Positions 4,430-25,260 of a DNA stretch of 25,260 nt are shown here, piece after piece. Position 1 is the first letter of the stretch. Each line of letters opens with the position of its first letter. Both the position numbers and the translations under genes were made by a program. Origin of the DNA: a virus (taxonomy: Duplodnaviria; Heunggongvirae; Uroviricota; Caudoviricetes). The stretch covers positions 64,001 through 89,260 of the IMG/VR virus record IMGVR_UViG_3300023171_000010; one strand, written 5' to 3'. The notes under the pieces were generated by a model. It had not been told where the DNA came from and ran no database searches. It saw only the letters and a program-made list of their open reading frames with translations.

Positions 4430-5713
4430 TTATGCCAAGATTTTACTTTCTTGAAGCACATTAGCATCCTTCCAAGACATTTTCAAGGGGATTAATGAGG
4501 TAATCTCAAATTCTTCACGGAAAGAATCTCCCATTGCATTCTCTAGAAAGCCTACGTCTGACATTTTCACCACAAAACTATCATGAATAGGTAAGATTGG
4601 CTTCATTTCATCAACAAATTTCTCAATTACCCGCTGTGCAAGATACGAATCGGCATTCTGTAGGGCTAGACCAAAAGAATCATCCCGGCAATAACAAGGA
4701 ATGAAGTCAGGCGTCATACTATAAATGTGTTCCCTCACCTCTTTACCTGTATTCAAGCTTTTGTCAATAACCCAACCTTGTGTTTTGAACTTCACAATCT
4801 CTCTATTAATTGCACGATCAGCACTATCTGTTGTTTTAGAGTTAAACAGAATATTAATTGATAACTTAATCAGTTCACGGTGATCATCATTTTGCAATCG
4901 TTCTGGTAGAATATCCATATACACATCTAGTGGTAGATTCTCCATACTAATCTGTTCCATCAGGCTTGCAATCCTGTAGTGCAAGTTAGAGAAATCAATC
5001 TCCACAACCTGCTCTCCATTGATTGTAATATCAAGTCGAGCTTTAGTTTTCTTATGTTTAATCTTTAAAGCATCAGAATGGAAGTAACGACCACCATGTT
5101 CAAAATCCTTGTTGAAAATACGTGAATAGATATTAGTCATTACATTACCTCCGCCATCACGAATATCATGTAACTCATTAATCTTATTAAGTTTTTCTAC
5201 AATCTTACGCGCATTCTTAATGTTCTTGTTGTCTTGATAGTCAATAGCTTTACCATATTCATTGCGAAGAATGATCGTTTGAAGGCTAGCATTATAAGCT
5301 GCAATAGCGCTCTGCACCTCCTCATCCTTGGAGCAAAACTCAGCAATAAAAGCTTCAGATGGCGTGATGTAAGACATTATTCTCTTTTCCTTATCTACGT
5401 GACCTTTACCCACGAAGTTGTAAATGTAGCCTAAATCTTCAAGGGTGTCAATGCATTTCAGTAGACGATGGGTTTGTATGCCACGTCTGTTATATTTGGT
5501 TCTTTTTGTGCTATGATTATTCTTATCTCTTGAGTATAGAAGCTTCTCCTGTCTCTTCACACAAGATATGAGATTCATTACAATCACAGCAGATAACTCT
5601 TTATCCATTATCTTATTTATATGTCTGATCTTATTCATAACAGAAGTAGATACATTGATATTGTATGTCAATAATCTACTCTTAAGACTATACTCTTCCT
5701 CATTCTCTAACAC
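4430..5713 (-). CDS. minimal PolA / T7-RNA-polymerase superfamily protein (TV-Pol-like), 427 aa, no exonuclease domain
   Basis: Motifs in correct order: HGGRYF (R209), VEIDFSNLHYR (D240), RELIK (R279/K283), PIHDSF (H377/D378); GTG start with SD agggag. Confidence 0.75.
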   Translation of the reverse strand: MLENEEEYSLKSRLLTYNINVSTSVMNKIRHINKIMDKELSAVIVMNLISCVKRQEKLLYSRDKNNHSTKRTKYNRRGIQTHRLLKCIDTLEDLGYIYNFVGKGHVDKEKRIMSYITPSEAFIAEFCSKDEEVQSAIAAYNASLQTIILRNEYGKAIDYQDNKNIKNARKIVEKLNKINELHDIRDGGGNVMTNIYSRIFNKDFEHGGRYFHSDALKIKHKKTKARLDITINGEQVVEIDFSNLHYRIASLMEQISMENLPLDVYMDILPERLQNDDHRELIKLSINILFNSKTTDSADRAINREIVKFKTQGWVIDKSLNTGKEVREHIYSMTPDFIPCYCRDDSFGLALQNADSYLAQRVIEKFVDEMKPILPIHDSFVVKMSDVGFLENAMGDSFREEFEITSLIPLKMSWKDANVLQESKILA

Positions 5714-5833
5714 TATTCCACTCCCTAGTCCCTCTTCTGTTCATATAAGTACAAATTTGATAGTAAGGTCAAGTAATACGTGGCATACAGAGGATTCCCG
5801 TAAGCCATTCTCCTTATTAATTTATTGATTGCT

Positions 5834-5905
5834 CTAACTCCAATATTGAAGAACAGCACCAAGACAAACACCAATTAGGAATACCATCACATAGTCAATC
5901 TTCAT
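5834..5905 (-). CDS. putative 23-aa single-TM micropeptide (MKIDYVMVFLIGVCLGAVLQYWS)
   Basis: Hand-translated; SD ggggag 7 nt upstream; overlaps upstream stop; one hydrophobic helix. Confidence 0.5.
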   Translation of the reverse strand: MKIDYVMVFLIGVCLGAVLQYWS

Positions 5906-6176
5906 TGTAAAACTCCCCATATTCCCCAACGTATGTGCAAGGGTATGAGCCACGTACAGATTTGTCAACAATATTGTAATGAGCTGAACACCATGAATTC
6001 CTGTGTGCCGGAGTCGTCTTGACGTAGACTAATTCAGGCACAGTAAAATGTGTAACGTCCACACCGTACTCCTTCAAGGCACACAGGAATTCTTCCACGC
6101 TGTGGTGTCCTTTGCTACGATAAATCTGCTCGTTGTCTGTGTGGCATGGTTCGATTACCAATTCATATTTCTTCAT
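5895..6176 (-). CDS. hypothetical protein, 93 aa (MKKYELVIEPCHT...)
   Basis: ORF in track; start moved to ATG 6176 within the repeated SD cassette, just downstream of a promoter. Confidence 0.8.
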   Translation of the reverse strand: MKKYELVIEPCHTDNEQIYRSKGHHSVEEFLCALKEYGVDVTHFTVPELVYVKTTPAHRNSWCSAHYNIVDKSVRGSYPCTYVGEYGEFYNED

Positions 6177-6196
6177 CACATCTGTCCTCATCAATT
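6170..6196 (-). repeat. 27-bp SD/start cassette, copy A (aattgatgaggacagatgtgATGaaga)
   Basis: 26/27 identical, in inverted orientation, to 6627-6653. Confidence 0.85.
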
Positions 6197-6211
6197 TATC
6201 CAACAGCACTC

Positions 6212-6240
6212 ATACTACCCAACAAATCCACAGGAGTCAA
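6212..6240 (-). promoter_or_regulatory. sigma70-type promoter TTGACT-N17-TAGTAT (leftward arm)
   Basis: -35 at 6240-6235, -10 at 6217-6212. Confidence 0.8.
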
Positions 6241-6610: not shown

Positions 6611-6626
6611 TGATCGTATTGAAATT

Positions 6627-6653
6627 AATTGATGAGGAGAGATGTGATGAAGA
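6627..6653 (+). repeat. 27-bp SD/start cassette, copy B (aattgatgaggagagatgtgATGaaga)
   Basis: Inverted near-identical copy of 6170-6196; core tgaggagagatgt also at 225-237 on the minus strand. Confidence 0.85.
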
Positions 6654-8877: not shown

Positions 8878-10620
8878 TTGAGTAACAAATATGGCATTGA
8901 CACCTCTCATGAGCATAAGACAGGTTGCCCAAGGTGTATCAGGAAGGGGCAAGACAAGTCTAGGAACAATCTTCATGTCTATGGTGAAGGTAAGGGGGCA
9001 TTCTGCTGGGCTTGTGAATTCACAATTCCTAGCGATGAATGGCTTGAAGAACATGGTGAAATTAAAGACGATGAAGAGGAGTTTGTAGTGGGAAGTTATT
9101 TTGATCTAGAAGTTAATGAGAAAATTAAGAAACAAACGGGCACAGATAGTAAGGGTTATCGAGGGATTCGTAGTGATATTTCCCGACCTTTTGGTGTGCG
9201 GTATAGTTATGATGAGGCTGATGGCAGTGTTGCTGCAACATACTACCCGACCACTCAGAATTATGAGATTTCAGGATACAAACTGAGGAAACACCCCAAA
9301 GACTTTACCAGTCCAGTAGGTGAGACTGGTAAGGATTGTGAACTTTTTGGTCAGTTTAAGTTCAAAACGATGACAGGCACTGTTGTTATTTGTGGCGGAG
9401 AGCATGACTCCCTCGCAGCTTTCCAGATGCTGTCTGACGCACAGAAGAATAAACAATATGATCCTGTAGCTTGCGTTAGTCCAACAATTGGTGAAAGTGG
9501 AGCCCATAAGCAAGTACAGAAACAATATGCCTTTTTCTCTCAAGCAAAGAAAATCGTAATTGCAACAGACAATGATAAAGCTGGTAAAGAAGCGGCCGAA
9601 AAGATTGCTAAAGTTTTGCCTCGTGGCCGTGTTTACATTATGAATATGCGCCTCAAAGATTGTAACCAATATATCGCTGAAGGTCGTGAACAAGATTTCA
9701 TTAATGATTTCTGGCAAGCAAAACCTTATAGTCCGGCTGGTGTTCACGCATCCAGTGGTTTGTTGACTGCTGCTATTGACTACTCTGACTTGAGTAAACT
9801 TACACTCCCACCTTTCATGGCTAAAGCTCAAACTATGTTTGGCGGCGGGTTGGTCAAGAATGAGCTAACTTGTTGTTTTGCCAAAACTTCTGTCGGTAAG
9901 AGCTTGTTTGTTGATTCCATGGTTGTGCATTGGGTTCTGACTGAACCAGCTGAGATTGTTGGCGTGTTGTCTCTTGAGGCGACCAAAGACAAATGGGCTA
10001 CAAACATTCTTTCCAATTATTTGGGCGTACGCCTGATTAACATGGATGGTGCAGCACGTCGTGAGTATCTATCTCGTGATGACATTCGTGACAAGGCTGA
10101 ACACTTCCTAATGAAAGAGGATGGTTCACCTCGTTTCTGGGTCTGTGATGAACGAGGAGCTTCCATTGAAGTTGTGAAAGAAAAGATTCTTGAGATGATT
10201 ATTCAACTCGGAGTTACTATCCTTGTTGCAGACGTTTATTCTGACTTGATGGCGGGTTTGAGTCTTGAAGCTCAAGAAGAATTGGTTGCATGGTTTAAGA
10301 AGCTGATTAAAGAGTATCCTCAAGTTAGTGTCTTGTTGGTATGTCATACCAGAAAAACAGATAACAATTCACAGCTAACTGAAAGTGATATTATTGGAAC
10401 TTCTACAATCATGAAGTCTGCTGCACAAACATTTAGTCTAGAACGCGATAAGCTCTCAGACAGTGATTTTGAGCGCAACTGCACCAAGGTTACTGTACAC
10501 AAGAATCGTCACCACTCAGAGACCGGCCCTGCTGGGATTGTGTATTTTGATAAGGACACTGGCAAACTATATGATCTAGACCAATATTTGATTGATCATC
10601 CAGAAATTACGGAGTTTTAA
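8878..10620 (+). CDS. T7 gp4-like DNA primase-helicase, 580 aa
   Basis: Zn finger CPRC...CWAC; TOPRIM GGEHD and TDND; SF4 helicase Walker A AKTSVGKS; HTRK; KNR arginine-finger region. Confidence 0.95.
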   Translation: MSNKYGIDTSHEHKTGCPRCIRKGQDKSRNNLHVYGEGKGAFCWACEFTIPSDEWLEEHGEIKDDEEEFVVGSYFDLEVNEKIKKQTGTDSKGYRGIRSDISRPFGVRYSYDEADGSVAATYYPTTQNYEISGYKLRKHPKDFTSPVGETGKDCELFGQFKFKTMTGTVVICGGEHDSLAAFQMLSDAQKNKQYDPVACVSPTIGESGAHKQVQKQYAFFSQAKKIVIATDNDKAGKEAAEKIAKVLPRGRVYIMNMRLKDCNQYIAEGREQDFINDFWQAKPYSPAGVHASSGLLTAAIDYSDLSKLTLPPFMAKAQTMFGGGLVKNELTCCFAKTSVGKSLFVDSMVVHWVLTEPAEIVGVLSLEATKDKWATNILSNYLGVRLINMDGAARREYLSRDDIRDKAEHFLMKEDGSPRFWVCDERGASIEVVKEKILEMIIQLGVTILVADVYSDLMAGLSLEAQEELVAWFKKLIKEYPQVSVLLVCHTRKTDNNSQLTESDIIGTSTIMKSAAQTFSLERDKLSDSDFERNCTKVTVHKNRHHSETGPAGIVYFDKDTGKLYDLDQYLIDHPEITEF

Positions 10621-10621
10621 T

Positions 10622-11494
10622 TTGAATTTTTCAGAAATTTTTAAATATGATGAAACAAGTCCAACATTTATTAGGTGGATAGAGCCATTTCGGATTGGCC
10701 GTGGTGGTAAACCTGTACGCCGAATAAATGATTGCCAAGCTGGTAATATTACAAGTGAAGGCCGTTTGGCAATTACGTACCAAGGCAAAGTCTACTCAAT
10801 CAACCAAGTTGTGTGGGAACTGTTCAATGGTAAGATTCCCAAGGGTAGGCAAGTTATGAATAAAGACGGGAATGCTTTGAATTGTAACATTGATAATCTG
10901 GAGTTGAATATAGTTTTAAATAAAAAAGATTATAAATATGGAGAGTATCTAGGCGAGTTCTTTATTTATGATGAAACATCTCCGAGTGGTTTGAGGTGGA
11001 AGAGGGTCAATACTCGGGGAAGTACAGCAAAAGTTGGAGATATCGTCGGGTCACTTGACAACGGATATTGGCGCGTACATGCCTTAGGTAGACATCTCAA
11101 GGGCCATAAAATTGTTTGGGCGTTAAATAACAACTTTGAAAATCAAGACGGCCTACATATTGATCACATTGATGGAAATCCCTCCAACAATAAGATCAAA
11201 AATCTGAGGTTGGTTGACCCTATTTTGAATGCCCGTAATAAACCAATGCTCAAAAGTAATACATCCGGGATTCATGGTGTATGTTTCCAGACTGTGAGGA
11301 CTAAAAATGGAAATTATGTTGACCGATATGTCGCCGGTTGGCGAGGTCTAGACGGAAAAGCGAAGACAAAATGTTTCTCTGTGAATGTCTATGGAGCAGA
11401 ATTAGCTGAATTTCTGGCAACTGAGTATAGACTTCACCAGATGGAGCTGTTAAACTTGATGGATGCTGGATACACTGAAAGGCACGGAACATAA
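10622..11494 (+). CDS. free-standing HNH homing endonuclease with a duplicated N-terminal module and C-terminal AP2-like domain, ~290 aa
   Basis: IDHIDGNPSNNKIKNL HNH core, NTSGIHGV AP2-like lead-in; TTG start 10622 chosen for SD ggag (track start 10592). Confidence 0.85.
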   Translation: MNFSEIFKYDETSPTFIRWIEPFRIGRGGKPVRRINDCQAGNITSEGRLAITYQGKVYSINQVVWELFNGKIPKGRQVMNKDGNALNCNIDNLELNIVLNKKDYKYGEYLGEFFIYDETSPSGLRWKRVNTRGSTAKVGDIVGSLDNGYWRVHALGRHLKGHKIVWALNNNFENQDGLHIDHIDGNPSNNKIKNLRLVDPILNARNKPMLKSNTSGIHGVCFQTVRTKNGNYVDRYVAGWRGLDGKAKTKCFSVNVYGAELAEFLATEYRLHQMELLNLMDAGYTERHGT

Positions 11495-11508: not shown

Positions 11509-13617
11509 ATGTTAGGTGAGAATGAGATTGTGCTGGATATTGAGGCAGATGGATTTATTTTTGAGTCCACAAAGGTTTGGACAGTTTGTGCAACCAATAT
11601 TCAAAGTGGGGAAAAGATTAAGGTAAATCCTTTTAAAGATGAGTCTGCCAAAGATCAGCTAATCTCATTCATCTTTAAAAAGCCTAATCCTGTGGTCATA
11701 GGCCACTTCATCCTTGGCTATGATATGTTCGTGTTGCAGAATATTGTGGGTATCAATTTCTCTGTTGGCAAAGACATGATTGACGGGAAGTCAGTTCAAT
11801 TTGTGGATTCTCTATATTTGAGCATGTTCCTTAACCCTGATCGTGTTGGGCACAGTGTTGAGGCATTTGGTGAAACTCTTGGACTTCCAAAGATTGATTG
11901 GCGAGAAAAAGCCATTGAACTTGGACTGATTGAGAAGAATGCCCCTAAAGGTGCAGAGTTCATGCAATGGCACCCAGAGATGGATGTGTACTGTGAGCGA
12001 GATACTGACGTAAACGTTTTACTATACCAATATCTTGCAAAAGAATGGAAAGATGTTTATGGAAAAGACTTCACAATCACTGATGCCTATAAGTGTGGAC
12101 AGAAGTCTTTTTATCTCATGTCTTGTCAGGAACTTACCGGCTTTAAGTTTGATAAAGATGCAGCAGTGGCATTACAGGGTCGCATCACTTTGATGATGGA
12201 AGAAATCCGAGCAGAGGTTGAGCCTAAACTTCCTCCAAGGGCTTTGAAGAAGTCTGAGGAAAAGTATTACAGCATGCCAGCCAAGCCCTGGAAAAAGTCA
12301 GGAGACTATTCTTCAGCGTGGGAAAAGTTTGTTGAGAAACACAATGGCGTCCTGAACACAGAGACGGGTTTTTGGGAATTTTATGGTGAAGAGTATCCCG
12401 TAGTTGCAGGAGCTATGTTGAATATTAAGCTTCCAATGGAAATGGCTAACCAAGATCAGATGAAAGACTGGTTTATACAGCAGGGTTGGAAACCAACTTT
12501 GTGGAATTACCAGAAAGATTCAAATGGTAAGCCAATACGCGATGCCCGTGGCAAACTTATCCAGACAAGTCCTAAGATTCAGGAAACACAGAAGATTTGT
12601 CCCAACTTGGAAAAGATGGAAGGACCGATTGTAAAACAAGTTGTTAAGTGGCTTTCATTGCGAAATCGTCAATCTGTTTTGAACGGATGGCTTGAAAATG
12701 AACGTTTCCAGATGGATGGGCGTCTTGGGGCTGGTCGTACAGGGATTGCCTCAACACACAGGCAGAAGCACAAAGTGGTTGTGAATGTTCCTAAAGCATC
12801 TGATAAGGTCTTACTCGGTAAGGAGTTCCGCTCCCTTTGGATTGCAGATGATGGTATGCTGATCGCAGCTGGAGACGCCGCCGCGCTGGAAGGAAGAGTG
12901 ATGGCGAGTTACACATGGAAGTATGATGATGGTAAAACCGCCCTTGAAATCCTTGAAGGCGATCCGCACTCTAAAAATGCAATGGCTTTCTATGGACATG
13001 AAAAGGATATTCAACAATTTGATATTGATTCACCGAGTTTTAGTAAAGATCACCCTATATTTAAACCATATCGTGATCGCAGTAAGAACGGATTTTACGC
13101 AATTTTGTATGGCGCTGGAGGGCCAAAGGTTGCAAGTACGCTTGGGTTACCCGAGAAGATGGGGAATGAGAAGCTCAATAAATTCTGGGAAGCCAACCCT
13201 GCAATTAAAGGTTTACGTGATAACCTAGAAAAGTATTGGGAGACCACCGGCCGTAGTAAATACCTCCCAGCAATTGATGGTCGTATGCTTTGCACACGTA
13301 AAAAGTCAGCACTCCTCAACACAATTTTCCAGAGTTGTGGAGGTATCACAATGGACTATGCTGGGTGTTTTATGGACCTGTGGCTAGGTGGCTTAAAGTG
13401 GGAAAATCGTAAACCTTATTACATGTACAAGGGTTATATCGTAAGGCGTGTAGCATATCAGCACGATGAGTACGAATTTGAAGCTGAAGAGCCAATTGCA
13501 CAAGAAATTGCACGGATGATTGAGAAATCTATTGAAAAAGCTGGACAGCACCTTAAGCTCAAAGTACCATTGGCTGGTGAAGGACAGGTAGGTAAAAATT
13601 GGAAAGAAGTGCATTAA
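11509..13617 (+). CDS. family A (T7 gp5-like) DNA polymerase with 3'-5' exonuclease, 702 aa
   Basis: Exo motifs DIEAD, LGYD, YCERD; pol motif A DAAALEGR, motif B RDRSKNGFYAILYG (Tyr at the Klenow-762 position, T7 type), motif C QHDE. Confidence 0.97.
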   Translation: MLGENEIVLDIEADGFIFESTKVWTVCATNIQSGEKIKVNPFKDESAKDQLISFIFKKPNPVVIGHFILGYDMFVLQNIVGINFSVGKDMIDGKSVQFVDSLYLSMFLNPDRVGHSVEAFGETLGLPKIDWREKAIELGLIEKNAPKGAEFMQWHPEMDVYCERDTDVNVLLYQYLAKEWKDVYGKDFTITDAYKCGQKSFYLMSCQELTGFKFDKDAAVALQGRITLMMEEIRAEVEPKLPPRALKKSEEKYYSMPAKPWKKSGDYSSAWEKFVEKHNGVLNTETGFWEFYGEEYPVVAGAMLNIKLPMEMANQDQMKDWFIQQGWKPTLWNYQKDSNGKPIRDARGKLIQTSPKIQETQKICPNLEKMEGPIVKQVVKWLSLRNRQSVLNGWLENERFQMDGRLGAGRTGIASTHRQKHKVVVNVPKASDKVLLGKEFRSLWIADDGMLIAAGDAAALEGRVMASYTWKYDDGKTALEILEGDPHSKNAMAFYGHEKDIQQFDIDSPSFSKDHPIFKPYRDRSKNGFYAILYGAGGPKVASTLGLPEKMGNEKLNKFWEANPAIKGLRDNLEKYWETTGRSKYLPAIDGRMLCTRKKSALLNTIFQSCGGITMDYAGCFMDLWLGGLKWENRKPYYMYKGYIVRRVAYQHDEYEFEAEEPIAQEIARMIEKSIEKAGQHLKLKVPLAGEGQVGKNWKEVH

Positions 13618-23563: not shown

Positions 23564-24218
23564 GAAAAGGAATAGGCTAGTATGGGGATGGGGTATTAAT
23601 GATGCTGATTACAATGTAGTTCTCACAGATGAGAATGGTAAACAGGTAATGTGCCCCATATATGCAAGCTGGAAAGATGTTTTACGGAGGACAAAATCAG
23701 AAGAGTTTAAACTGAAATTTCCCACCTATAAAGAAGCCACAGTAACAGACAATTGGAAGTATTTTTCAAATTTTAAGTTATGGATGTCTTCATTGATGTG
23801 GGAAGGGATGGACCTAGATAAAGACATATTATCGCCGGGGAACAAGCATTATTCCGAAGATAGTTGTGTCTTTGTACCACACGAGATAAATACTTTACTT
23901 AGGCTAGTTACAACAAACACAACTACACCTGTGGGTGTTGCCTACGACAAAAGAAGGTATAAAGGTAAGAATTTGATTAACCCTTTCTTTGCTAGAGTTA
24001 ACTGTTTCGGCGGAGGATATAAACATCTGGGTATGACATCTGATCCATTTGTAGCTCACAAGGCTTGGCAATGGGAGAAGTCCATACAAATTGAAAAAGC
24101 TGTGAGTTGGTATGCATTACAGGCTTGTTTTAGAAGTGATGTAGCTGAAGCTTTAACATCTAGAGTTTGGAAGCTTAGGCTGGATCACTCTACAAACAAA
24201 GAAACTAAATATTTATAA
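23553..24218 (+). CDS. free-standing homing-endonuclease-type protein (GWGIND...LDKDILSPGNKHYS family), 221 aa
   Basis: Same motif set as 15582..16163; sits immediately upstream of the RNR gene. Confidence 0.75.
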   Translation: MELRKRNRLVWGWGINDADYNVVLTDENGKQVMCPIYASWKDVLRRTKSEEFKLKFPTYKEATVTDNWKYFSNFKLWMSSLMWEGMDLDKDILSPGNKHYSEDSCVFVPHEINTLLRLVTTNTTTPVGVAYDKRRYKGKNLINPFFARVNCFGGGYKHLGMTSDPFVAHKAWQWEKSIQIEKAVSWYALQACFRSDVAEALTSRVWKLRLDHSTNKETKYL

Positions 24219-24230
24219 ATAAGGAGTTGT

Positions 24231-25260
24231 ATGAATACCGCTGGCAAAAATATGATGAGTCAATCAAAGTTTTACATGGGTTACTCTCGTTGGGATGAAG
24301 TTAAGGGTGGATATGAAACTTGGGATGAATCAGTTTCTCGTGTAATGAATATGCACCGTCAAAAGTATGCTTCTGTTATGACACCAGAGCTTGAAGAATA
24401 CATCTCTTTTGCAGAGCAAGCCTATAAAGATAAAGTTGTGTTAGGGGCACAACGAGCATTACAGTTTGGTGGTGAACAACTATTTAAACATGAAGCTCGT
24501 ATGTACAATTGCTCTGTATCTCATTGTGATCGCGCAGCATTCTTTCAAGAGTGTATGTATCTCCTGTTGTGTGGTTGTGGTGTTGGCTTCTCAGTCCAAT
24601 CTCACCACATTGCTAAGTTGCCAAAAGTACATAAGCGTTATGAGAAGAAAGTAAAAGTGTTCCAAGTTCCAGATACAATTGAAGGGTGGGCAGATGCTTT
24701 TGGTGTATTGTTCAGTAGTTACTTTGTAGACGGTGGAACATTCCCTGATTATAAAGGCTGTCAAGTACACTTTGACTTCAACAAGATTCGACCTAAAGGA
24801 GCTTTGATTAGTGGCGGGTTTAAAGCTCCAGGCCCTGATGGTTTGCGTAGTGCGTTGGTCAAGTGCGAGGCGTTGCTAGAAGCATTAGTTGAGGGTAAAA
24901 CAGAGGGTGTTAGCGTTCCTACCATCACAGCTTATGACTTTGTTATGCATATGTCTGATGCAGTTTTGAGTGGTGGTGTTCGCCGGTCTGCAACCATCTG
25001 TATGTTTGATAAAGATGATGATTTGATGTTGAAGGCCAAAACTGGTGATTGGTTTGTTGATAACCCTCAACGTGGTCGTAGTAATAACTCTGTAATGCTT
25101 GTTCGTGGTGAACTTAGCCGCGAAGAATGGGCTAACATTATGAAGTCTGTTAAAGACTTTGGTGAACCCGGTTTTATCTTTACAGAGAATAAAGAGTTCT
25201 GTTTCAACCCTTGCGTAGAAATTGGTATGTTGCCAGTTGCTGAGAATGGAGAATCAGGCT
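24231..25260 (+). CDS. ribonucleotide reductase catalytic subunit, 5' part (resembles monomeric class II NrdJ/RTPR type); runs off window
   Basis: Hand-translated, open to window end; YSRW...ETW, MYNC, LLLCGCGVGFS, GGVRRSA, FNPCVEIG (thiyl Cys328); SD aaggag. Confidence 0.93.
   Translation, partial: MNTAGKNMMSQSKFYMGYSRWDEVKGGYETWDESVSRVMNMHRQKYASVMTPELEEYISFAEQAYKDKVVLGAQRALQFGGEQLFKHEARMYNCSVSHCDRAAFFQECMYLLLCGCGVGFSVQSHHIAKLPKVHKRYEKKVKVFQVPDTIEGWADAFGVLFSSYFVDGGTFPDYKGCQVHFDFNKIRPKGALISGGFKAPGPDGLRSALVKCEALLEALVEGKTEGVSVPTITAYDFVMHMSDAVLSGGVRRSATICMFDKDDDLMLKAKTGDWFVDNPQRGRSNNSVMLVRGELSREEWANIMKSVKDFGEPGFIFTENKEFCFNPCVEIGMLPVAENGESG

What the first reader, a model, noticed from the sequence alone, without database searches (positions are those of the whole stretch)
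4430..5713. Second, minimal polymerase of the PolA/T7-RNAP superfamily with RNAP-like substitutions, in the early region
Seen: ordered motifs HGGRYF (R209), IDFSNLHYR (D240), RELIKLSINILFN (R279, K283) and PIHDSF (D378) in only 427 aa, with no exonuclease domain. The phage already has a complete 702-aa family A DNA polymerase 6 kb away. Established: motif C is IHDSF in T7 RNAP and VHDE in DNA PolA; xGRxY precedes motif A in single-subunit RNAPs; the motif A Glu (Klenow E710) is the steric gate against rNTPs. Here that position is His, and the O-helix aromatics (Klenow F762/Y766) align to Asn. Small stand-alone members of this superfamily in mobile elements and viruses (TV-Pol type) have been proposed as primase-polymerases. 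Inference: this could be a primer-independent polymerase/primase, a mini RNA polymerase for an unknown promoter class, or a nucleotidyl transferase used against host defence. It lies under an early sigma70 promoter, away from the replication module, which hints at a non-replicative job. I cannot tell whether this family has already been characterised in related phages.
Basis: partly seen in the sequence, partly recalled or inferred. Interest (0 to 1): 0.9.

Follow-up and report, generated by a model that had tools for sequence, protein, structure and literature searches.

The report
Extra minimal PolA-like polymerase (divPolA2)
The gene encodes a small, intact relative of DNA polymerase I and T7 RNA polymerase joined to a probable DNA-binding winged-helix head. 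It belongs to a phage and mobile-island family already described by computer (TV-Pol 2008, divPolA2 2024) whose biochemical activity has never been tested.

Summary
The ORF at 4430-5713 (minus strand) gives a 427-aa protein with every motif at the stated residues.

R209, D240, R279, K283 and D378 are invariant in 122 diverse relatives. The family has over 11,000 sequence clusters and no Pfam, NCBIfam or PADLOC model.

It is not new. My family profile hits AUR84708, the published divPolA2 representative (Yutin et al. 2024), and the barbavirus and ICP1 proteins. It also meets all four defining features of TV-Pol (Iyer et al. 2008). This scan had found the family before on other DNA.

Bacterial relatives sit beside integrases and resolvases in small islands. 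In phages the gene is accessory: its neighbours vary and it duplicated independently (this genome has a 45%-identical paralog).

The unusual residues are family-wide: His at the steric gate, Asn at the O-helix Tyr position, HDSF. The ICP1/AUR84708 branch instead has the DNA-polymerase-like Glu/Tyr/DE set.

My best reading is a site-targeted primase-polymerase that starts replication. An RNA-making enzyme is not excluded.

The parts
4430..5713 (-). divPolA2 / TV-Pol-type minimal family-A-like polymerase gene (427 aa, P0001)
   Evidence: ORF and translation. PHROG 4756 E 1.5e-56. AF2 model pLDDT 91. PolA and ssRNAP fold matches. A3 family HMM also scores the published divPolA2 proteins.
5309..5656 (-). 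N-terminal probable winged-helix DNA-binding domain (residues ~20-135)
5171..5326 (-). Two long antiparallel helices (residues 130-143 and 163-181), thumb-like
   Evidence: Secondary structure of the model. PolA alignments begin at residues 137-158.
5081..5125 (-). Beta-hairpin carrying the invariant Arg (G207-G208-R209; T/DxxGR-type motif)
   Evidence: Strands 197-201 and 208-211 in the model. R209 is kept in 122/122 and G208 in 121/122 relatives. Aligns by register with Klenow TATGR and T7 RNAP DWRGR.
4973..5014 (-). Motif A strand with catalytic D240 and His245 at the steric-gate position
   Evidence: D240 122/122 and H245 118/122. Register DFSNLHYR against Klenow DYSQIELR.
4841..4888 (-). 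Fingers O-helix: R279xxxK283xxxN287xxxN291
   Evidence: Helix 276-291 in the model. R279 and K283 122/122, N291 119/122. Klenow has F762/Y766 and T7 RNAP M635/Y639 at the last two positions.
4565..4594 (-). Motif C hairpin with H377-D378-S379-F380
   Evidence: Strands 374-376 and 379-383 in the model. D378 122/122. Identical to T7 RNAP IHDSF. The only stretch that hhalign aligned to T7 RNAP.
5724..5797 (-). Upstream leader. It holds a degenerate copy of the element that travels with divPolA2 genes (CTGTATGCCACGTAT at 5790-5776), a sigma70-like TTGACC (5772-5767)-18 nt-TTATAT (5748-5743), and the RBS GGGAG (5725-5721).
   Evidence: Sequence read and alignment of upstream regions of 10 homologs. 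A DNA profile built from 7 other phages' upstream regions scores this stretch only weakly (E 8.2). It scores the paralog's upstream region as the single significant hit in the genome (E 3.8e-4).
6212..6240 (-). Sigma70-like promoter match (TTGACT-17-TAGTAT) at the head of the leftward operon
   Evidence: Consensus scan, 9/12. The scan as a whole is not enriched over shuffles (17 sites found against 12.9 +/- 4.1), so this is suggestive only.

Best explanation
The gene encodes a catalytically intact minimal polymerase of the PolA/T7-RNAP superfamily. It belongs to the divPolA2 family of phages, which also meets the definition of the older TV-Pol family of mobile elements. I put this identity at ~0.95.

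The architecture, from N to C, is:
- a probable winged-helix DNA-binding head;
- a two-helix thumb;
- an Arg-bearing beta-hairpin;
- a palm with two metal-binding Asp residues (D240, D378);
- an RxxxK fingers helix.
There is no exonuclease domain.

The mechanism I think most likely is inferred, not shown, and I put it at ~0.45-0.5. The winged helix docks the enzyme at a specific DNA site, probably the conserved element next to its own gene. The stripped-down polymerase core then starts, and briefly extends, a nucleic-acid strand there. This would make it an origin-targeted primase-polymerase. In bacteria it would let small integrase or resolvase islands replicate. In phages it would be an accessory, horizontally exchanged initiation module working beside the regular primase-helicase and PolA.

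Which sugar it polymerises is open. This branch has a polar His/Asn/Ser set where DNA polymerases have Glu/Tyr/Glu.
For: Shown here:
- Intact active site. R209, D240, R279, K283 and D378 are invariant in 122 diverse relatives and are kept in the paralog.
- Purifying selection. 18 of 24 listed differences are at third codon positions.
- Family membership. The A1 profile's only hit in MG592441.1 (E 2.7e-28) lies inside AUR84708.1, the published divPolA2 representative. The A3 HMM scores barbavirus gp034 at 1.7e-54, AUR84708 at 6.3e-46 and an ICP1 protein at 1.5e-44.

Context pointing to replication of mobile DNA:
- One distant homolog sits in an int - HTH_17 - X - GmrSD/MTase/ResIII island, and another beside a resolvase and a type I R-M system.
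- Among 98 nearest large neighbours in 59 bacterial loci, 11 are tyrosine integrases and 8 are resolvases.
- The family is patchy: 22 of 301 genomes of one bacterial order carry it.
- A UvrD-type helicase lies directly downstream in Vibrio phage HNL01.

A cis element travels with the gene. A DNA profile built from 7 other phages' upstream regions finds one significant hit in this 89-kb genome, directly upstream of the paralog (E 3.8e-4).

From the literature: TV-Pols were predicted to be primase-polymerases (PMC2579912). The one tested enzyme placed in that group, CcPol-MP, is a dNTP primase (PMC7581432).
Against: - No activity has been measured for any member of this branch.
- CcPol needs an SSB partner and keeps the E710/F762 equivalents. 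This protein has neither a conserved partner nor those residues.
- I found no iterons or obvious origin near the gene.
- The window copy's own upstream element is only weakly recognisable (E 8.2).
- The phage already has a DnaG-DnaB-type primase-helicase at 8878-10620, so an extra primase is not obviously needed.
- Related phages lack the gene at this locus, so it is dispensable for replication as such.
- The HDSF motif C and the missing steric-gate Glu fit an RNA-synthesising enzyme as well as a primase.
Confidence: 0.5

Rival explanations
1. It is a small single-subunit RNA polymerase. The winged helix would act as a promoter-recognition module, and the enzyme would transcribe a phage gene set or a few specific RNAs.
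For: - Motif C HDSF is identical to T7 RNAP and is the only stretch hhalign aligned to T7 RNAP.
- His replaces the steric-gate Glu, and His245 and Asn291 are polar.
- AFDB relatives are auto-named 'DNA-directed RNA polymerase'.
- Yutin et al. raise this option (PMC11348598).
- The paralog sits at the head of the operon that runs into the Y-RNA/tRNA/Ro60 island. The position is; the island is known only from an earlier scan note.
Against: - No 13-mer recurs four or more times in the genome. Repeated 12-mers are few, and those listed are mostly the terminal repeat.
- The conserved upstream element occurs only next to the gene itself.
- The O-helix Tyr (T7 Y639) that all known ssRNAPs use is Asn here.
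- There is no N-terminal promoter-melting domain or specificity loop.
- Bacterial relatives sit alone in tiny integrase islands with no gene set that would need its own RNAP.
Confidence: 0.18
2. It is a repair, gap-filling or lesion-bypass DNA polymerase of the phage.
For: Yutin et al. suggest it (PMC11348598). A UvrD-like helicase lies next to the HNL01 homolog. The lack of proofreading is typical of specialised polymerases.
Against: - The dNTP-selecting Glu and Tyr/Phe are missing in 243 of 260 family members I hold.
- A sequence-specific winged helix and a gene-linked cis element are not expected for a repair enzyme.
- The integrase- and resolvase-island context points to element replication.
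Confidence: 0.1
3. It is a counter-defence or decoy nucleotidyl transferase, or a purely selfish gene that spreads in phage genomes without serving phage replication.
For: - Its neighbourhoods vary and it is present or absent at the same locus in related phages.
- It is variable among ICP1 isolates.
- Duplications are independent and lineage-specific.
- The nearest cultured relative carries a very divergent copy (22% identity) although its PolA is 68% identical.
- Bacterial copies lie next to R-M and GmrSD cargo.
Against: There is no match in PADLOC. The catalytic core is strictly conserved over more than 11,000 clusters. Selfish spread is also compatible with the primase-polymerase mechanism, so this is not a true alternative to it.
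Confidence: 0.1

Closest known systems
divPolA2 (Yutin, Tolstoy, Mutz, Wolf, Krupovic, Koonin; Virol J 2024; PMC11348598)
   Same: Same family by sequence profile: AUR84708 at E 2.7e-28 and 6.3e-46, barbavirus gp034 at 1.7e-54. It is an extra polymerase beside a regular DNAP. It has about 430 aa, no exonuclease and an N-terminal globular domain. Its neighbourhood varies, genomes carry 1-3 paralogs, and the fold matches both DNAPs and mtRNAP. It occurs in the phage clade that includes Ounavirinae and barbaviruses.
   Different: - The regular polymerase here is a PolA, whereas barbaviruses have PolB.
- The published representative AUR84708 and the ICP1 copies carry the DNAP-like Glu245/Tyr291/Asp-Glu set. 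This protein and 243 of 260 relatives I hold carry His/Asn/Asp-Ser. Barbavirus has Trp/Asn/Asp-Ser.
- The paper found no similarity for the N-terminal domain and no homologous thumb. My model suggests a winged helix plus a two-helix thumb.
TV-Pol family, subset with the N-terminal TV-PolN domain (Iyer, Abhiman, Aravind; Biol Direct 2008; PMC2579912)
   Same: All four defining structural features are present: a two-helix thumb, a hairpin with an invariant Arg, a palm with two Asp residues, and fingers with a conserved Asp (D263) plus RxxxK. The bacterial relatives show the described link to integrases, resolvases, transposases and R-M hot spots. The predicted function is the same (primase-polymerase).
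   Different: A direct sequence link to a named TV-Pol is only marginal. Ma-LMM01 gp030 is my guess at that phage's TV-Pol, and hhalign gives probability 51%, E 1.6e-4. The paper's alignments are not held. The D5-helicase fusions of other TV-Pols are not seen in this branch.
CcPol-MP of SCCmec (Bebel et al. eLife 2020, PMC7581432; Rice 2023, PMC10061031)
   Same: A truncated family-A polymerase on a mobile element that acts as a primase. It is the only enzyme grouped with TV-Pols that has been tested biochemically.
   Different: CcPol keeps the Klenow E710 and F762 equivalents and uses dNTPs. It needs a small OB-fold SSB partner encoded next to it. Here the residues differ, no conserved partner exists, and a winged helix is fused instead.
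T7-like single-subunit RNA polymerases, including N4 RNAPII
   Different: This protein is half the size or less. It lacks the N-terminal promoter-binding domain, the specificity loop and the O-helix Tyr (Y639). Its motif A is DNAP-like (DFSNLHYR against DYSQIELR).

Membership tests
divPolA2 (PMC11348598) | Sequence homology to barbavirus divPolA2 and to the representative AUR84708 (genome MG592441.1) | tested here: met
   The A1 profile's single hit in MG592441.1 (25496-26383, E 2.7e-28) lies in the CDS of AUR84708.1. The A3 HMM scores Barba35A gp034 at 1.7e-54, AUR84708 at 6.3e-46 and P0001 at 1.7e-115. The BFVD fold hit to the Barba31A 435-aa 'DNA polymerase' has E 7e-19.
divPolA2 (PMC11348598) | An additional polymerase in a phage that also encodes a regular DNAP; no exonuclease; an N-terminal globular domain | tested here: met
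   Regular PolA at 11509-13617. The model shows residues 1-135 as a separate domain and 140-427 as the polymerase core.
divPolA2 (PMC11348598) | Variable gene neighbourhood and paralogs within genomes | tested here: met
   A paralog of 45% identity lies at genome 40188-41447. There are 68 places in 51 phage records. Downstream genes differ between carriers: PcfJ-like, a UvrD helicase, or unrelated small ORFs.
TV-Pol (PMC2579912) | Thumb centred on two antiparallel helices | tested here: met
   Helices 130-143 and 163-181 precede the palm in the AF2 model. This rests on the model only.
TV-Pol (PMC2579912) | Beta-hairpin with an absolutely conserved Arg | tested here: met
   Strands 197-201 and 208-211. 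R209 is kept in 122/122 relatives.
TV-Pol (PMC2579912) | RRM-like palm with two conserved Asp residues | tested here: met
   D240 and D378 are kept in 122/122 relatives, at the end of strand 234-241 and in the 374-383 hairpin.
TV-Pol (PMC2579912) | Fingers with a conserved Asp and an RxxxK motif | tested here: met
   D263 111/122, R279 and K283 122/122, in helix 276-291.
TV-Pol (PMC2579912) | Direct sequence relationship to a protein named as TV-Pol in the 2008 paper | tested here: inconclusive
   The A1 profile found nothing in Ma-LMM01. The candidate gp030, which lies beside transposases, gives hhalign probability 51%, E 1.6e-4, with matching GxR, D...H and K...N positions. The paper's alignment file is not held.
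TV-Pol (PMC2579912) | Association of the N-terminal-domain subset with resolvase, lambda-type integrase or transposase genes in mobile islands | tested here: met
   11 integrases, 8 resolvases and several transposases among 98 nearest large neighbours in 59 bacterial loci. Explicit islands are seen.
Canonical family-A DNA polymerase (Pfam PF00476) | Recognisable by the DNA_pol_A profile; steric-gate Glu (Klenow E710); O-helix F762/Y766; motif C HDE | tested here: not met
   No Pfam match at E<=1 for P0001 or for 60 relatives. The residues are His245, Asn287, Asn291 and HDS.
T7-like single-subunit RNA polymerase | O-helix Tyr (Y639) that reads the 2'-OH, an N-terminal promoter-binding domain, and a specificity loop | tested here: not met
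   Asn291 stands at the Y639 position. In this 427-aa protein the N-terminal domain is a winged helix. Only motif C is T7-like.
PolA-SSB primases (CcPol-MP type; PMC7581432, PMC10061031) | An adjacent small OB-fold SSB partner gene | tested here: inconclusive
   [not shown]

The most novel reading that the evidence does not exclude
The family may contain two catalytic classes. The majority His245/Asn291/Asp-Ser class includes this protein, its paralog and the bacterial-island enzymes. It would use ribonucleotides and so be a natural, winged-helix-targeted, ~45-kDa RNA-synthesising primase or RNA polymerase of the PolA superfamily. The minority Glu/Tyr/Asp-Glu class (ICP1, AUR84708) would be DNA polymerases. 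The three positions change together in the few sequences I compared. That would make sugar choice readable from sequence and give a very small targetable RNA polymerase.
Probability: 0.2. Interest if true: 0.7.

Novelty: new member of a known kind. Interest (0 to 1): 0.3.

Why it matters
The family is large (more than 11,000 clusters at 50% identity). It occurs in well-studied phages such as ICP1 and in many integrative islands. It still has no Pfam model and no biochemistry.

It is about the smallest natural version of the Pol I / T7 RNAP catalytic core. Learning whether it primes, what sugar it uses, and what its winged helix binds would do two things. It would settle a prediction open since 2008, and it would explain how minimal islands, and some phages, start DNA synthesis.

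For this window, the practical result is an annotation. The gene is a divPolA2/TV-Pol-type polymerase. It is not a new kind of enzyme.

Tried and rejected
- **Profile and sequence libraries.** Pfam, NCBIfam and PADLOC gave no match for the protein or its relatives. A sequence search of the PDB gave nothing for the polymerase part.
- **hhalign to single sequences.** Family profiles against the single Klenow and T7 RNAP sequences were not significant. Only motif C aligned to T7 RNAP, at E 0.038.
- **Link to a named TV-Pol.** The profile search of Ma-LMM01 was empty. The gp030 candidate was marginal. The 2008 supplement is not held. The order-wide genome search returns no organism names, so I could not check Brucella.
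- **PcfJ-like neighbour as functional partner.** Rejected. Relatives carry the PcfJ-like gene without the polymerase (L097, L098) or the polymerase without it (L094). I did not run complex prediction because I claim no binding.
- **Small downstream ORFs as a shared partner.** They show no similarity to each other.
- **Iterons or an origin near either copy.** None found.
- **A genome-wide phage-specific promoter.** No 13-mer recurs four or more times, and most of the listed repeated 12-mers belong to the terminal repeat.
- **tRNA and Rfam genes in the window.** None.
- **Protein Atlas.** Only unnamed clusters.
- **RNA evidence.** Contigs from one soil RNA library cover 4602-5541 and 5587-6113 at ~96% identity. 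Contigs cannot show transcription, and DNA carry-over is possible.
- **Literature.** The search for 'PcfJ' returned only C. elegans plasmid names. The PolA reclassification paper (PMC10201439) does not cover this family.
Full report
**The observation.** The minus-strand ORF at 4430-5713 starts with GTG, has a GGGAG 8 nt upstream, and encodes 427 aa. The window also holds a regular family-A polymerase at 11509-13617. A DnaG/DnaB-type primase-helicase lies at 8878-10620, and an HNH endonuclease gene sits between them. The window is bases 64001-89260 of an 89,260-base virus record. The nearest cultured phage is Pseudomonas phage vB_PsaM_M1 (Ounavirinae), whose PolA is 68% identical. Pakpunavirus-type phages follow at ~31%.

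**The protein is real and under selection.**
- It matches PHROG 4756 (function unknown) at E 1.5e-56 but no Pfam, NCBIfam or PADLOC model.
- A word-indexed search gave 113 relatives.
- An exhaustive profile search gave 11,035 cluster representatives at E<=1e-3, of which 4,947 were at E<=1e-30.
- In 122 diverse representatives R209, R226, E238, D240, Y265, R279, K283 and D378 are invariant. H245, N291, H377, S379 and F380 are nearly so.
- Of 24 listed differences between this gene and relatives' contigs, 18 fall at third codon positions.

**Fold.** The AlphaFold2 model built on 60 homologs has mean pLDDT 91 and pTM 0.84.
- Foldseek against the PDB returns only family-A DNA polymerases at the top (E ~1e-5).
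- The exhaustive VIA-align search gives:

|---|---|
| Apicoplast Pol | 14.8 |
| Pol nu | 14.2 |
| Klenow | 13.6 |
| Yeast mtRNAP | 13.1 |
| T7 DNAP | 12.7 |
| T7 RNAP | 11.9 |
| N4 RNAPII | 7.6 |

- All these matches cover residues ~140-425. DNA and RNA polymerases are therefore matched about equally well, so the fold does not decide the substrate.
- D240 ends strand 234-241, H377-D378 sit in the 374-383 hairpin, R279/K283 lie in helix 276-291, and G208-R209 sit in the 197-211 hairpin. This is the canonical arrangement. I could not read the model's coordinates, so I did not measure the distance between the two Asp residues.

**Motif registers.** I used the real E. coli PolA and T7 gene 1 sequences.

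| Motif | This protein | Klenow | T7 RNAP | Reading |
|---|---|---|---|---|
| A | DFSNLHYR | DYSQIELR | DGSCSGIQ | DNAP-like frame, but His245 stands at the E710 steric-gate position |
| B (O-helix) | RELIKLSINILFN | RRSAKAINFGLIY | RSVTKRSVMTLAY | Asn287 and Asn291 replace F762/Y766 and M635/Y639; like neither enzyme |
| C | IHDSF | VHDEL | IHDSF | T7-like |
| GR hairpin | present | present | present | not diagnostic of RNA polymerases |

**What is already known.**
- Iyer, Abhiman and Aravind (2008, PMC2579912) defined TV-Pols by four features: a two-helix thumb, a hairpin with an invariant Arg, two palm Asp residues, and fingers with an Asp plus RxxxK. They described a subset with an extra N-terminal domain that lies next to resolvases, integrases or transposases in R-M-rich hot spots, and they predicted primase-polymerase activity. 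This protein meets all four features.
- A note from an earlier run of this scan pointed me to Yutin et al. 2024 (PMC11348598). I checked that paper. It describes divPolA2 as follows:
  - it is an extra, diverged PolA of barbaviruses and related phages;
  - genomes carry one to three paralogs;
  - the neighbourhood varies;
  - the palm is active and there is no exonuclease;
  - the N-terminal globular domain has unknown affinity;
  - the suggested role is either repair DNAP or RNA polymerase.
- I then tested membership directly. My family profile has one hit in the paper's example genome MG592441.1 (E 2.7e-28). That hit lies inside AUR84708.1, the paper's representative. A broader family HMM scores barbavirus gp034 at 1.7e-54, AUR84708 at 6.3e-46 and an ICP1 protein at 1.5e-44. 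The gene is therefore a divPolA2.
- The direct link to a named TV-Pol stayed marginal. My candidate is Ma-LMM01 gp030, with hhalign probability 51%.
- The only biochemistry in this neighbourhood is CcPol-MP of SCCmec. It is a dNTP primase that needs an SSB partner and keeps the Glu/Phe selectors (PMC7581432).

**Context in bacteria.**
- One distant homolog lies in an island reading integrase - HTH_17 - X - GmrSD - methylase - ResIII. Another lies beside a resolvase and a type I R-M system.
- A genome-collection scan returned 80 loci from many phyla. Of 98 nearest large neighbours in 59 of those loci, 11 are tyrosine integrases, 8 are resolvases, and several are transposases or R-M genes.
- Within one bacterial order, 22 of 301 genomes carry the family.
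- This is the pattern of a core gene of small mobile islands. In such islands the gene after int and xis is usually the replication initiator or primase. That last point is established knowledge of satellites and islands, and I use it as inference here.

**Context in phages: the gene is accessory and mobile.**
- This genome has a second copy (45% identity, all key residues kept) at genome 40188-41447.
- In a maximum-likelihood tree that copy is sister to the window's clade. Another phage contig has two copies that are each other's closest relatives, so duplications were independent.
- At the same locus, the head of the operon that diverges from the primase-helicase module, relatives differ. 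Some carry the polymerase without the PcfJ-like gene. Others carry the PcfJ-like gene without the polymerase.
- The cultured relative vB_PsaM_M1 carries a very divergent copy (22% identity) elsewhere in its genome.
- In ICP1 the gene is present only in some isolates, in a variable slot.

**A cis element travels with the gene.**
- Upstream regions of homologs from very different phages share a layout. It runs: a GC-rich imperfect inverted repeat (CTGTAGCC...GGCTACAG type), a T-run, a TATATGG-like box, and then the RBS.
- A DNA profile built only from seven other phages' upstream regions finds one significant hit in this whole genome. It lies directly upstream of the paralog (41528-41451, E 3.8e-4). 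The window copy's leader (5797-5724) scores at background (E 8.2), although it keeps CTGTATGCCACGTAT and a TTGACC-18-TTATAT pair.
- The element therefore sits next to the gene and is not spread over the genome. That fits an operator or origin-like site recognised by the winged helix, as in Rep-ori modules. It argues against a dispersed promoter class. In line with that, no 13-mer recurs four or more times in the genome.

**Residue classes inside the family.** Aligned to the family HMM, the sequences fall into three groups.

| Group | Position 245 | Position 291 | Positions 378-379 |
|---|---|---|---|
| This protein, its paralog, the island proteins, HNL01, 1.121.O, M1, 11895-B1 | His | Asn | Asp-Ser |
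| Barbavirus | Trp | Asn | Asp-Ser |
| AUR84708 and ICP1 | Glu | Tyr | Asp-Glu (the Pol I states) |

Of the 260 family members I hold, 243 are His/Asn/Asp-Ser. That sample is biased toward this branch. The joint change at three substrate-facing positions suggests two catalytic classes, but this is inference from a handful of sequences.

**Verdict.** The gene is a new member of a family that has been described but never assayed, and this scan has met the family repeatedly on other DNA.
- My preferred mechanism is a winged-helix-targeted primase-polymerase that starts replication of the element carrying it (~0.45-0.5).
- An RNA-making enzyme comes second (~0.2).
- A repair polymerase and a counter-defence or purely selfish role come behind (~0.1 each).

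Nothing here shows activity. The experiments listed under next steps would decide.

Noticed in passing
window 5811-6184 (and direct repeats 5811-5825 / 6185-6199): Contigs of close relatives (X4, X5) join 5810 directly to 6185. They therefore lack 374 bp that hold most of the 104-aa gene (5895-6209, PHROG 10472). The indel is bounded by 15-nt direct repeats, TCCTTATTAATTTAT and TCCTCATCAATTTAT. These are part of the repeated SD/start cassette that another first-reader note describes.
   Followed up: partly
window 24201-25260 = genome 88201-89260, repeated at genome 1-1060: Shared 12-mers at a constant offset of 88,200 show that the record's last ~1,060 bases repeat its first ~1,060. This is either a terminal redundancy or an assembly wrap-around, so the unit genome is ~88.2 kb.
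   Followed up: no
[not shown]
   Followed up: partly
genome 39751-41447 (L002:1049-2745, minus strand): The paralogous polymerase gene overlaps by 4 nt a 146-aa gene with an HEVGH motif. The pair heads the leftward operon that, according to earlier scan notes, runs into the Y-RNA/tRNA/Ro60-like island. A tRNA lies at L002:242-313.
   Followed up: partly
L116 (Vibrio phage ICP1 isolate 2017_Dha_A, 57744-59048): Some ICP1 isolates carry a full-length divPolA2 of the Glu/Tyr/Asp-Glu type, in a variable slot between 'GP97.1' and 'GP103'. Other ICP1 records show only a half-length, 26%-identical match.
   Followed up: partly
window 10592-11494 (+): A free-standing HNH endonuclease gene with an AP2-like C-terminal region is wedged between the primase-helicase and PolA genes.
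   Followed up: no
window 6170-6199 and 6624-6653: A 30-nt inverted repeat, 93% complementary, brackets the strand switch. This agrees with the first-reader note on an inverted SD/start cassette.
   Followed up: no
L014 and L016 (contig CAZTDV010000007.1, filed under a Sediminibacterium MAG): This 83.9-kb contig is a phage of the same group, binned into a bacterial MAG. It carries two divPolA2 copies. Their upstream regions hold the same 17-nt element in opposite orientations.
   Followed up: partly
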